Assembly (NCBI GenBank): GCA_964645485.1
Contig: CAZXZO010000012.1
Span: forward strand, 39,509-51,045
Direction of reading: 5' to 3'
Source: an uncultured Candidatus Poseidoniales archaeon
Lineage (GTDB): Archaea; Thermoplasmatota; Poseidoniia; Poseidoniales; Thalassarchaeaceae
Length of the DNA: 11,537 nucleotides
Below the pieces are notes generated by a model, which saw only the letters and a list, made by a program, of their open reading frames with translations, did no database searches and was not told the origin of the DNA. The position numbers and the translations under genes are program-made. Positions 770 through 2,357 of the stretch are shown one piece after another (position 1 is the first letter of the stretch; every line of letters begins with the position of its first letter).

Positions 770-1075
770 TCAATTGAATTTGTCGTCATGATCTCCTGCT
801 TTCACCTGTTTAATGAATTCTTTTGGCACGATGCCTTCGATATGACAGCGCATAGATACACATGTTCCCATGACTTCTAATGAGCGTTGCTTGACACCTT
901 TACCAGACAAATCATCCGCTTTCTCTTTTGAGATAGTAATGATTTGGTCGAGTGTAATATTGTGAACTGATGGGTCTGAACCAACATCGGTTTCTCCTTC
1001 CCAAGAGCCGTTGAATTTGATGCCCTTACCAATAACTGCTGTGCGTATGCGTCGTGCAGTCCAGTTATCTGACAT
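770..1075 (-). CDS. rpl11: Ribosomal protein L11, C-terminal rRNA-binding domain only (101 aa)
   Basis: NITLDQIITISKEK...EVMGTCVSM...IEG...KAGDHD matches the archaeal L11 C-terminal domain. Canonical position between spt5 and rpl1. SD GAGGTGA (1086-1080) lies 4 nt before the ATG. Confidence 0.85.
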   Translation of the reverse strand: MSDNWTARRIRTAVIGKGIKFNGSWEGETDVGSDPSVHNITLDQIITISKEKADDLSGKGVKQRSLEVMGTCVSMRCHIEGIVPKEFIKQVKAGDHDDKFN

Positions 1076-1149: not shown

Positions 1150-2067
1150 TCAGACAACACGCTCCGTTACATGCACGTTGTCAGCACGCATTGTGATAGG
1201 GATTGGAACTGCTGCTTCGAATAACTCTACAGTAACCTCTTCTTTTCCTTCTTCGACTCCAGTTACACGGGCGCGATTTCCTTTGAAATGCCCAACTCTG
1301 ATTTCAACAACACTACCAACTTCTATTCCAGCAGTTGCCGATTTCGGCTCGAGATAATTGGAAACAACTCCTAATGGTGCTTCGCCTGGAAGAACTTTGG
1401 AACAACCACGCATTGGTGTAGTTACACCACCAGCACGTCCAATCAACTTCTCAACGTGGTGCTTTGCACTTGCTTCAACAAAGATATATCCGCGCATGAG
1501 TCGAGGATGAATGACTGAGAAAACTTCGCCTTGAACATCTCTCAGAGAGCCAGTTCCAGAAATACGTGCATGTATTTCATTAGCGATTTTCTGTTCTTGA
1601 CCAATTGTTGTTTTGAGCATGTAGAGGAAACTCGAGACATCCCCATACATATCCCCAAGTTGGGAAACCGTTGGTCGGGTTTGAATAGCGGAGATATCGT
1701 CATCTGAATTATCCATCTCATCAGGGCTCAAAACATTGAGATAACCAGGGTCAACCCACATTGCTTCATCGTAAAGGGTACGTGGCTCTATTTCTGAGGT
1801 GTCACTAACAAACAGAATAGGAGTAACCTCGTTTAGTCGGTTACCAAATTCAATTCCACGTGCATCTCCCATTCGAACTAAGGTTAGAGAGGATGATTGA
1901 ATACCTGTGGAGTCTTCAATTCTCATGAACACATGGTCAAGATCATTATGGTCTCCAACCCCGTAAACTCCATCCCAGCAATTTGCGAAATCGGTGACTT
2001 CCTCGCCACGCTTCAGCAAAAGTAATTTGTCTTCATGTCGAATAAAAACGATGAACCCATCAGACAT
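1150..2067 (-). CDS. spt5: Transcription elongation factor Spt5 (NusG family, NGN+KOW) with fused N-terminal Nudix-like domain, 305 aa
   Basis: The C-terminal ~160 aa have Spt5 motifs (KTTIGQE, RGYIFVEA, GSVVEIRVGHFKG..ARV, VTVEL...VPIPIT). The start is better placed at ATG 2067 (MSDGF...), which has GGAGGT at 2079-2074 and avoids overlap with secE. The listed 2109 start lies inside secE. Confidence 0.93.
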   Translation of the reverse strand: MSDGFIVFIRHEDKLLLLKRGEEVTDFANCWDGVYGVGDHNDLDHVFMRIEDSTGIQSSSLTLVRMGDARGIEFGNRLNEVTPILFVSDTSEIEPRTLYDEAMWVDPGYLNVLSPDEMDNSDDDISAIQTRPTVSQLGDMYGDVSSFLYMLKTTIGQEQKIANEIHARISGTGSLRDVQGEVFSVIHPRLMRGYIFVEASAKHHVEKLIGRAGGVTTPMRGCSKVLPGEAPLGVVSNYLEPKSATAGIEVGSVVEIRVGHFKGNRARVTGVEEGKEEVTVELFEAAVPIPITMRADNVHVTERVV

Positions 2068-2093
2068 TTTGAAACCTCCAATTCTAAATTTGT

Positions 2094-2357
2094 TTAACCA
2101 ATAAGCCAACGGAAGAATTTGGGTAATTCAGTATCCATTAGCCATAACATGACAAAGCCGATGAATCCAAGTACAAACATACCGATTCCACAAACCCAGA
2201 TAGTTTGTCTGAATTCCATTTTACTTGGTTTACGAGCCATTCGAATAATTCGAGCCCACGAACCACGACCAAAACTGCGAACCCATGTCTCAAACTGGTC
2301 TTGTCGAGCTTGAACTCGGTCCTCAAAGGACTTACTTGTAGAGTCTTCACTAGCCAT
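2094..2357 (-). CDS. secE: Protein translocase subunit SecE (Sec61-gamma)
   Basis: 87 aa with an amphipathic helix, the ARKPSxxEF motif and one C-terminal TM helix (GIGMFVLGFIGFVMLWL). Expected position between ftsZ and spt5. Confidence 0.92.
   Translation of the reverse strand: MASEDSTSKSFEDRVQARQDQFETWVRSFGRGSWARIIRMARKPSKMEFRQTIWVCGIGMFVLGFIGFVMLWLMDTELPKFFRWLIG

What the first reader, a model, noticed from the sequence alone, without database searches (positions are those of the whole stretch)
1150..2067. Spt5/NusG fused to a catalytically degenerate Nudix domain
Seen in sequence: a single ORF joins ~145 extra N-terminal residues (2067 to ~1630) to a complete NGN+KOW Spt5. The extension (FIVFIRHEDKLLLLKRG...WDGVYGVGD...MRIEDSTGI...LTLVR...VTPILFVSD...AMWVDP) follows the stereotyped Nudix sequence order. 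At the Nudix box (~1962-1900) the canonical REUxEExGU reads MRIEDSTGI, so the metal-binding glutamates are replaced. An acidic linker (DEMDNSDDD) follows. Established: archaeal Spt5 is normally ~150-160 aa with only NGN+KOW and is the universal RNAP processivity factor. Inactive Nudix folds act as ligand or RNA sensors elsewhere (CFIm25, NrtR). Inference: this module rides on elongating RNAP and could read nucleotide metabolites (ADP-ribose, NAD, NpnN) or the 5' end/cap of nascent RNA. That would link metabolism to elongation, termination or transcription-translation coupling. The gene sits at the canonical spt5 locus, so it is probably the housekeeping copy. I do not recall this fusion being described, but could not search.
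Basis: partly seen in the sequence, partly recalled or inferred. Interest (0 to 1): 0.82.

Follow-up and report, generated by a model that had tools for sequence, protein, structure and literature searches.

The report
Spt5 carrying a dead Nudix domain
In this marine archaeon and its whole order (apparently Marine Group II), the only copy of the universal transcription elongation factor Spt5 carries a conserved extra N-terminal domain: a former Nudix hydrolase that has lost its catalytic residues, so it probably binds something rather than cutting it.

Summary
Window 1150-2067 (-) is one 305-aa gene. Residues ~147-305 are a normal Spt5 (TIGR00405, 111 bits). Residues 1-146 are a true Nudix fold (AF2 pLDDT 90.9; Z 13.8 to 3grn; all top structural hits are Nudix proteins).

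All the Nudix-box metal-binding glutamates are lost or variable.

It is neither an artefact nor a paralogue:
- The domain was found in 150 of 151 genomes of the order (22 of 22 genera), always in frame with Spt5.
- Five near-complete genomes each hold a single Spt5.
- The sister order has a plain Spt5.
- dN/dS of the Nudix core is about 0.07.

Points added here:
- The 'acidic linker' is a variable insertion inside the Nudix domain. The last Nudix helix runs straight into NGN strand 1, so the two domains look rigidly joined.
- The domain descends from a stand-alone canonical Nudix family of other Thermoplasmatota, often encoded just downstream of a PIN-ATPase-KH gene.
- New invariant residues (R10, D32, R49, Y99) occupy former active-site positions.
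- The domain is strongly acidic (net -10.7).

Function is untested. The sensor idea is plausible but unproven, and direct RNA or DNA reading looks less likely. No paper describing the fusion was found. This scan had already found it in other Marine Group II genomes.

The parts
1150..2067 (-). Whole gene: pseudo-Nudix-Spt5, 305 aa (stop codon 1150-1152)
   Evidence: 99-57% identical full-length orthologues
2074..2079 (-). Shine-Dalgarno-like GGAGGT, 6 nt upstream of the ATG at 2067
   Evidence: the start position is conserved in the 28 orthologues tabulated (30 aligned in all)
1732..2067 (-). Nudix-fold core, residues 1-112 (strands 3-11, 14-20, 34-37, 61-66, 70-74, 77-88, 99-105; Nudix helix 43-54)
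   Evidence: AF2 pLDDT 90.9, pTM 0.84; Foldseek top 50 all Nudix; VIA Z 13.8, rmsd 2.1 over 112 aa to 3grn
1900..1962 (-). Degenerate Nudix box, residues 36-56. Box E6 is lost together with a 2-residue deletion in this protein (4 in one family), R14 becomes M (variable), E15 becomes R49 (30 of 31 orthologues), E18 becomes D52 (variable E/D/S/A/Q/T), E19 becomes S53 (variable A/S/V/C/T)
   Evidence: alignments against stand-alone relatives with canonical boxes
1672..1731 (-). Variable acidic insertion, residues 113-132 (low pLDDT, relaxed selection, absent in many genera)
   Evidence: pLDDT 55; dN/dS about 0.58
1630..1671 (-). Last helix of the Nudix domain (137-144, TVSQLGDMYGDV) and its 2-residue junction to NGN strand 1; Y141 and G142 are invariant
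   Evidence: pLDDT 85-88; homologous to the C-terminal 'TVPKLxE..' helix of stand-alone relatives
1363..1629 (-). Spt5 NGN domain, residues about 147-235
   Evidence: PF03439 E 5.9e-11; Foldseek hits to 3p8b_B and 9bct_G
1153..1362 (-). Spt5 KOW domain and C-terminus, residues about 236-305
   Evidence: PF00467 at residues 250-281; TIGR00405 match reaches residue 302
2094..2357 (-). Context: secE immediately upstream
   Evidence: PF00584, weak hit
770..1075 (-). Context: L11 gene immediately downstream, only 101 aa, without its N-terminal domain

Best explanation
This gene encodes the organism's only Spt5, the housekeeping transcription elongation factor. In the whole order it has a former Nudix hydrolase joined to its N-terminus. 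Shown here: the extra domain has a complete Nudix fold and is homologous (25-35% identity) to a small stand-alone Nudix family of other Thermoplasmatota that has a canonical catalytic box, from which it probably derives. It has lost or randomised every metal-binding glutamate. It evolves under strong purifying selection. Its last helix runs with only two residues into the first strand of the NGN domain. Inferred: it no longer hydrolyses anything and is held in a fixed orientation on the NGN domain, so it rides at the top of the RNA polymerase cleft on every elongation complex. My preferred mechanism is that the remodelled former active site is a metal-free binding pocket for a phosphate-bearing small ligand, most likely nucleotide-derived. 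The pocket would be formed by new invariant R10, D32, R49 and Y99 together with the ancestral R20, W31 and W104. Ligand occupancy would then modulate how Spt5 acts on the polymerase. I give this roughly a one-in-three chance. That the domain is a non-catalytic binding module of some kind I hold at about 0.85.
For: Identity and reality:
- TIGR00405 scores 111 bits.
- There is a single Spt5 in the window's own genome and in 5 near-complete genomes of the order, two of them single-contig.
- The N-domain is found in 150 of 151 genomes and 22 of 22 genera, always in open frames of about 290-390 aa.
- 30 extracted orthologues align over residues 1-305 with a conserved start ATG.
- The sister order has a plain Spt5 of about 180 aa.

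Fold:
-.

Loss of catalysis:
-.
- Stand-alone relatives keep the Gx5Ex7(R/K)ExxEExG box and a DWEH motif. The fused form has neither.

Selection:
- dN/dS is 0.066 for the Nudix core against 0.017 for Spt5.
- Invariant residues are listed.

Rigid junction:
- Helix 137-144 is followed by strand 147-153 at pLDDT 85-88.
- Y141 and G142 are invariant.
- The helix is homologous to the C-terminal helix of the stand-alone proteins.

Neo-functionalised site:
- Former catalytic or substrate positions are not simply decayed.
- R49 replaces box E15 and Y99 replaces the His of DWEH. Both are fixed order-wide, whereas box positions E18 and E19 drift.
Against: No ligand, partner or activity was tested. I could not read the model's coordinates, so it is not shown that R10, R20, D32, R49 and Y99 cluster in one pocket. 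An Arg replacing a metal-binding Glu could simply salt-bridge with neighbouring acidic residues and stabilise a dead site. The family's own substrate-binding motif (DWEH) and part of the box loop are gone, so the ancestral ligand pocket is heavily remodelled. The relative orientation of Nudix and NGN rests on one AF2 model: pTM 0.67, with the four other models at lower mean pLDDT of 67-71. Other Thermoplasmatota carry unrelated N-terminal additions on Spt5, either acidic tails or a beta-rich domain. That suggests the shared requirement may be bulk or charge rather than a pocket.
Confidence: 0.5

Rival explanations
1. The domain is an acidic docking platform. It works through its surface charge and shape, not through a pocket. 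It would be a folded counterpart of the acidic N-terminal region of eukaryotic Spt5, binding a basic protein partner (a chromatin protein, ribosomal protein or termination factor) or repelling or mimicking nucleic acid near the upstream DNA. The Nudix fold would be only a scaffold.
For: Net charge of the Nudix core is -10.7 (range -17 to -7) with pI 4.4 across 31 orthologues, against NGN pI 9.0. There are extra acidic insertions and N-terminal acidic extensions in several lineages. The sister order's Spt5 has a short acidic N-tail. Other Thermoplasmatota Spt5 carry acidic low-complexity N-tails of 180-260 aa. Non-enzymatic Nudix-fold proteins that act as structural or interaction modules appear among the structural matches, namely mitoribosomal proteins and the MutY C-terminal domain.
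Against: It does not explain why specific former active-site positions became invariant Arg, Tyr and Asp. No histone was found over the cut-off in this genome, which is 82% complete, so the eukaryote-like histone-handling analogy has no evident partner. No partner was identified.
Confidence: 0.25
2. The domain is a nucleic-acid reader. It would bind the 5' end or cap of the nascent RNA (as RppH, Dcp2 or CFIm25 do), or read the non-template or upstream DNA (as the MutY Nudix-like domain does).
For: RppH-RNA complexes and MutY are among the structural matches. Stand-alone relatives lie directly downstream of a PIN-ATPase-KH gene in 13 of 26 loci, which is a nucleic-acid-related context. Some orthologues add an N-terminal SAP domain, a DNA-binding motif by Pfam's description.
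Against: The domain is strongly acidic. It is fixed to NGN, not to KOW, the domain nearer the RNA exit (established Spt5 structures; my knowledge). Shared fold says nothing about shared ligand.
Confidence: 0.08
3. The domain is a relic kept for folding, stability or expression of Spt5, with no binding function of its own.
For: Catalytic residues are gone. Function is unknown.
Against: Conservation is order-wide with dN/dS about 0.07 and about 30 residues that are invariant or nearly so, including surface-type polar residues. A relic would be expected to decay or be lost in at least some of 22 genera.
Confidence: 0.08
4. It is still an enzyme, with non-canonical chemistry.
For: Some Nudix-clan members work without a canonical box, for example IPP isomerase. 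There is a weak IPP isomerase hit at E 0.14, and 1hx3 scores Z 10.9.
Against: No acidic residue on the Nudix helix is conserved. The only invariant acids are D32 and D106. The IPP isomerase hit is far below its cut-off.
Confidence: 0.04
5. It is an artefact: a mis-assembly, a stop-loss joining two genes, or a gene-calling error, with only a short Spt5 made from an internal start.
For: None found.
Against: The same fusion occurs in 150 of 151 genomes, including single-contig genomes. The start ATG is conserved and has an SD. Met140 is Leu in several orthologues and Met150 is Ile or Val, so there is no conserved internal start. Stand-alone relatives are never next to spt5.
Confidence: 0.01

Closest known systems
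Canonical archaeal Spt5 (NCBIfam TIGR00405; solved: P. furiosus 3p8b_B, M. jannaschii 4zn1/4zn3, T. kodakarensis 9bct_G)
   Same: The NGN+KOW body, 34-36% identity to the solved chains, the same secE-spt5-L11 locus, a single copy per genome, and Spt4 also present in the genome.
   Different: It is twice the length, with a 146-residue Nudix-fold domain in front of NGN and essentially no linker.
Stand-alone small Nudix hydrolases of other Thermoplasmatota (131-141 aa, e.g. L015:3888-4289:-), often just downstream of a PIN-PilT ATPase-KH gene
   Same: They align collinearly over the whole domain, including the C-terminal helix, at 25-35% identity with E 1e-9 to 1e-14 in phmmer searches of each locus's ORFs. 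Closest solved fold: 3grn, MutT-related protein of Methanosarcina mazei.
   Different: They keep the canonical Nudix box and a DWEH motif, are separate genes not linked to spt5, and are less acidic.
Non-catalytic Nudix-homology domains: NrtR (3gz5/3gz8), CFIm25/NUDT21, DBC1, TRPM2 NUDT9-H, MutY C-terminal domain
   Same: Nudix fold with a degenerate box, used as a binding module within a regulator. NrtR (Z 12.1) and MutY/MUTYH (Z 10.1-11.3) are among the structural matches. The class is described in PMC5389931.
   Different: There is no specific sequence relationship to any of them. The partner domain (NGN-KOW of Spt5) is unique. Ligand binding is not shown.
Eukaryotic Spt5 N-terminal acidic region, and other N-terminally extended Thermoplasmatota Spt5 (acidic tails; beta-rich domain)
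   Same: An acidic addition placed directly before the NGN domain.
   Different: Here the acidic module is a compact folded ex-enzyme, not a disordered tail. There is no evidence of shared partners.

Membership tests
Archaeal Spt5 (TIGR00405 equivalog) | Score above the curated cut-off over the full NGN+KOW model | tested here: met
   111 bits against a cut-off of 69.95; model positions 1-141 of 145
Archaeal Spt5 (TIGR00405 equivalog) | NGN and KOW folds | tested here: met
   Foldseek E 4e-14 to 1e-13 to 3p8b_B and 9bct_G; TM (target) 0.75 to 9bct_G
Archaeal Spt5 (TIGR00405 equivalog) | Housekeeping copy: canonical locus and single copy | tested here: met
   secE upstream and L11-L1-L10 downstream; one match per genome
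Archaeal Spt5 (TIGR00405 equivalog) | Binds the RNAP clamp and Spt4 | not testable with these tools
   An Spt4 gene is present in the genome; binding was not tested
Nudix homology clan (fold level) | Alpha/beta/alpha Nudix fold of about 130 aa | tested here: met
   pLDDT 90.9; Z 13.8, rmsd 2.1 over 112 aa to 3grn; all 50 best Foldseek hits are Nudix proteins
Nudix hydrolases (PF00293, active enzymes) | Nudix box Gx5Ex7REUxEExGU with its metal-binding glutamates | tested here: not met
   E6 lost, E15 replaced by R49, E18 variable, E19 replaced by A/S/V/C/T in 31 orthologues
Nudix hydrolases (PF00293, active enzymes) | Pfam model match | tested here: not met
   No hit for this protein at E<=1; 2 of 38 orthologues hit at E<=0.01
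Nudix hydrolases (PF00293, active enzymes) | Pyrophosphohydrolase activity | not testable with these tools
   Needs an enzyme assay
Non-catalytic ligand-sensing Nudix domains (NrtR-like) | Binds a nucleotide-derived effector that changes the activity of the attached regulator | not testable with these tools
   Only indirect: new invariant Arg, Tyr and Asp at former active-site positions

The most novel reading that the evidence does not exclude
The gain of the pseudo-Nudix domain on Spt5 and the loss of the N-terminal domain of ribosomal protein L11, encoded by the next gene, are functionally linked. Both occur in every genome of this order that I examined, and neither occurs in its sister order. 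Together they would represent a lineage-specific rewiring of the contact between the transcribing polymerase and the ribosome's factor-binding stalk base. A less extreme version, at about 0.3, is that a metabolite bound by the dead Nudix pocket gates the universal elongation factor.
Probability: 0.05. Interest if true: 0.9.

Novelty: new variant of a known kind. Interest (0 to 1): 0.62.

Why it matters
Spt5/NusG is the only transcription factor conserved in all three domains of life, and archaeal Spt5 is regarded as a minimal NGN+KOW protein. Here an entire order carries a second, conserved, folded domain rigidly mounted on the part of Spt5 that closes the polymerase cleft. Going by the source names, this order is Marine Group II, among the most abundant planktonic archaea. 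If the domain binds a metabolite or a partner, basal transcription elongation in these organisms has a regulatory input unknown elsewhere. It is also a clear natural example of an enzyme turned pseudoenzyme and recruited into the core gene-expression machinery. The organisms are uncultured, but the domain is small and soluble-looking, so binding and structure experiments with recombinant protein are feasible.

Tried and rejected
- Does the new domain replace Spt4? No. An Spt4 gene scores over the cut-off in the genome.
- Is the stand-alone Nudix gene a neighbour of spt5 in other lineages, which would point to fusion of adjacent genes? No Spt5 lies within about 4 kb in 6 loci.
- Do the long upstream open frames in some genomes (357-389 aa) encode extra domains? 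No. They are out-of-frame read-through over secE. True SAP-bearing forms do exist in metagenomic relatives.
- Is there an internal start for a short Spt5? Met140 and Met150 are not conserved.
- Is there a histone partner, by analogy with eukaryotic Spt5N? PF00808 finds nothing over its cut-off in this 82%-complete genome.
- Sequence-only detection of Nudix gave only marginal results: Pfam none; NCBIfam only IPP isomerase at E 0.14; a PDB profile search gave E 0.03-0.09 to NudC and MutT.
- Literature searches combining Spt5 or NusG with Nudix, Marine Group II or Poseidoniales found nothing relevant.
- I could not map conserved residues onto the model, because coordinates are not exposed.

Full report
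**1. The observation**

On the minus strand, window 1150-2067 is a single 305-codon frame. The ATG at 2067 is preceded by GGAGGT six bases upstream. It lies 26 nt after the stop of a secE-like gene.

NCBIfam's Spt5 equivalog TIGR00405 matches residues 149-302 at 111 bits, against a cut-off of 69.95. Pfam finds NGN at 148-211 and KOW at 250-281.

Sequence models hardly recognise residues 1-140:
- There is no Pfam NUDIX hit.
- The only NCBIfam hit is to IPP isomerase, a Nudix-clan enzyme, at E 0.14.
- A profile of 30 orthologous N-domains reaches only E 0.03-0.09 against NudC and MutT chains of the PDB.

**2. The fold**

AlphaFold2 was run with a 30-sequence alignment of the N-domain. It gives mean pLDDT 90.9 and pTM 0.84.
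- Foldseek against the PDB returns Nudix proteins in all 50 best rows, with probability 1.00 and query TM 0.6-0.79.
- An independent all-against-representatives alignment gives Z 13.8, rmsd 2.1 Å over 112 residues, to the MutT-related protein 3grn. This is followed by 49 further Nudix-fold chains.

The full-length model has pLDDT 81.2. Its C-terminal half matches archaeal Spt5 structures 3p8b_B and 9bct_G at E about 1e-13.

**3. It is real, fixed and the only Spt5**

- The protein search found 700 relatives. The 120 listed cover essentially the whole query at 57-99% identity. Where a source names them, they are called Spt5 from Thalassarchaeaceae, Thermoplasmatota or 'Euryarchaeota' MAGs. That naming is my basis for calling the order Poseidoniales (Marine Group II). 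The genome handles themselves are unnamed, so the identification is an inference.
- The N-domain alone was found in 150 of 151 genomes of the order and in 22 of 22 genera, always in an open frame of about 290-390 aa. The one genome without it is 86% complete.
- Thirty orthologues taken from those genomes align from residue 1 to 305. An ATG sits at the same position in the 28 tabulated.
- The window's genome has one Spt5 match. Five near-complete genomes of the order, two of them single contigs, each have exactly one TIGR00405 match, in a frame of 299-318 aa.
- In the sister order of the same class (probably Marine Group III, by inference), Spt5 is about 180 aa with only a short acidic N-tail.
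- Between the window and its closest extracted relative, dN/dS is 0.066 for the Nudix core, 0.017 for the Spt5 part and about 0.58 for residues 113-132.

An assembly artefact, a split gene and a recent stop-loss are therefore excluded. No internal start is conserved: Met140 is Leu in several genera, and Met150 is Ile or Val.

**4. Origin and what was lost**

Outside the order, the domain's best relatives are separate genes of 131-141 aa. They share 25-35% identity, with E down to 1e-11 genome-wide. They are found in roughly half of the sampled Thermoplasmatota and are not next to spt5.

They align collinearly with the fused domain, including a C-terminal helix ('TVPKLxE..LL'). They carry a canonical box, Gx5Ex7(R/K)ExxEExG, and a conserved DWEH motif.

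In the fused form:
- Box E6 is gone, together with a 2-4-residue deletion.
- Box R/K14 is variable.
- Box E15 is Arg (R49, 30 of 31).
- Box E18 drifts (E/D/S/A/Q/T) and box E19 is A/S/V/C/T.
- DWEH is replaced, with its His now an invariant Tyr (Y99).

No acidic residue on the Nudix helix is conserved. Classical Nudix catalysis is therefore very unlikely.

The site has not simply decayed. F5, R10, D32, R49, Y99, D106 and G108 are new and fixed across the order, alongside the ancestral R20, W31, G33, G36, G55, P83 and W104.

In 13 of 26 loci, mostly from two families, the stand-alone gene lies directly downstream of a PIN-PilT-type ATPase-KH gene, often overlapping it by 4 nt. The window's genome has a homologue of the ATPase part, without a PIN domain and with no Nudix gene beside it. 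This is a lead on the ancestral context only.

**5. Anatomy of the junction**

The acidic stretch DEMDNSDDD lies in residues 113-132. That segment is absent in many genera and different in one family. It has low confidence (pLDDT about 55) and relaxed selection.

After it comes helix 137-144. This helix is homologous to the terminal helix of the stand-alone proteins, and it is followed after two residues by NGN strand 147-153, with pLDDT 85-88. Y141 and G142 in this helix are invariant.

The Nudix domain therefore spans about 1-146 and is joined to NGN without a flexible linker. This suggests a fixed orientation on the polymerase-bound NGN. That is an inference, because I could not inspect coordinates or inter-domain error estimates.

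**6. Physico-chemical character and variants**

Across 31 orthologues the Nudix core has mean net charge -10.7 (range -17 to -7) and pI 4.4, whereas NGN has pI 9.0.

Some relatives add an acidic N-terminal extension. Others add a SAP domain plus an acidic linker in front of the Nudix domain (SAP E 2e-13 and 2e-10). In the one SAP-form contig examined (P0021), the gene still follows secE.

Other Thermoplasmatota have Spt5 proteins of 330-413 aa whose extra N-terminal part is either a long acidic low-complexity tail or a beta-rich region of about 200 aa. The N-terminus of Spt5 therefore seems to be a preferred place for additions in this phylum.

Spt4 is present in the genome, so the new domain does not replace it.

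**7. How it most likely works**

Established knowledge from solved archaeal and eukaryotic complexes places NGN on the clamp coiled-coil, closing the cleft over the DNA. KOW lies nearer the RNA exit. A domain rigidly attached before NGN strand 1 would therefore sit on the outside of the cleft lid on every elongation complex.

- **Preferred reading (about one in three).** The remodelled former active site is a metal-free pocket for a phosphate-bearing small ligand. The replaced positions became invariant Arg, Tyr and Asp instead of drifting.
- **Main rival (about one in four).** The domain is an acidic docking surface. This fits the charge and the acidic tails seen in related Spt5 proteins.
- **Nucleic-acid reading.** Direct reading of RNA ends or DNA is disfavoured by the charge. 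The SAP variants and the ancestral gene context keep it alive.
- **Residual catalysis, a functionless relic, or an artefact.** All are unlikely.

None of these was tested experimentally.

**8. Comparison with what is known, and novelty**

The protein passes every testable criterion for Spt5. At fold level it belongs to the Nudix clan. It fails the defining sequence features of active Nudix hydrolases.

Functionally it resembles the non-catalytic Nudix-homology domains (NrtR, CFIm25, DBC1, TRPM2 NUDT9-H, MutY C-terminal domain), a class reviewed in PMC5389931. It has no specific relationship to any of them.

That review does not contain the terms NusG, KOW or 'elongation factor'. Full-text searches combining Spt5 or NusG with Nudix, Marine Group II or Poseidoniales found nothing on this architecture. 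Source databases name the protein simply 'Spt5' or 'NusG'. Atlas clusters carry NGN, with NUDIX on at most 21% of members.

This scan had already found the same fusion in several other genomes of the group, and follow-up agents reached the same basic verdict. My tests are independent of theirs and agree.

- the junction anatomy;
- the stand-alone ancestor family and its gene context;
- the neo-conserved site residues;
- the charge contrast between the Nudix core and NGN;
- the co-occurrence with the loss of the L11 N-terminal domain.

**9. Verdict**

The feature is real, order-wide and apparently undescribed. It is a new domain architecture of a universal factor, so I class it as a new variant of a known kind. 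Its mechanism is open. Interest 0.62.

Noticed in passing
window 770-1075 (-): The L11 gene next to spt5 encodes only 101 aa: the rRNA-binding C-terminal domain plus a short leader. The L11 N-terminal domain (PF03946) gave no hit in this genome. No hit reached the cut-off in any of 51 genomes of the order that are at least 90% complete. All 9 genomes of the sister order have it at E about 1e-25. Orthologues in the order are 90-104 aa as read from the first ATG. The loss therefore has the same phyletic pattern as the gain of the Nudix domain on Spt5.
   Followed up: partly
L015:4286-6121:- with L015:3888-4289:-; likewise L014, L018, L050, L053, L055, L057, L059-L061, L063, L064, L069: In other Thermoplasmatota, the stand-alone canonical Nudix gene related to the Spt5 domain lies directly downstream of a PIN-PilT-like ATPase-KH gene in 13 of 26 loci, often overlapping it by 4 nt. 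This suggests an operon of unknown, nucleic-acid-related function.
   Followed up: partly
L070:1345-2730:- (own genome, contig 18): The window's genome has a homologue of that ATPase (46% identity over query residues 155-533). It has no PIN domain hit and no Nudix gene beside it.
   Followed up: partly
P0223, P0237, P0242; P0227, P0230, P0252, P0262 (relatives found): Other Thermoplasmatota Spt5 proteins of 330-413 aa carry either a very long acidic, Pro/Glu/Ser-rich N-terminal tail or a beta-rich N-terminal region of about 200 aa with no Pfam family. The Spt5 N-terminus seems to be a hot spot for additions in this phylum.
   Followed up: partly
P0014, P0018, P0020-P0025; L071:3001-4173:+: Some close relatives (72-77% identical) carry a SAP domain and an acidic linker in front of the pseudo-Nudix domain. 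In L071 the L11-L1-L10 genes lie on the opposite strand upstream of ftsZ-secE-spt5, so the usual spt5-L11 linkage is broken there.
   Followed up: partly
L016:3538-4335:-; P0153; P0139: Relatives of the same stand-alone Nudix family occur fused to a DUF126 (aconitase-X swivel-like) domain, to a ribose-1,5-bisphosphate isomerase/eIF2B-like domain, and as a triple-Nudix protein.
   Followed up: no
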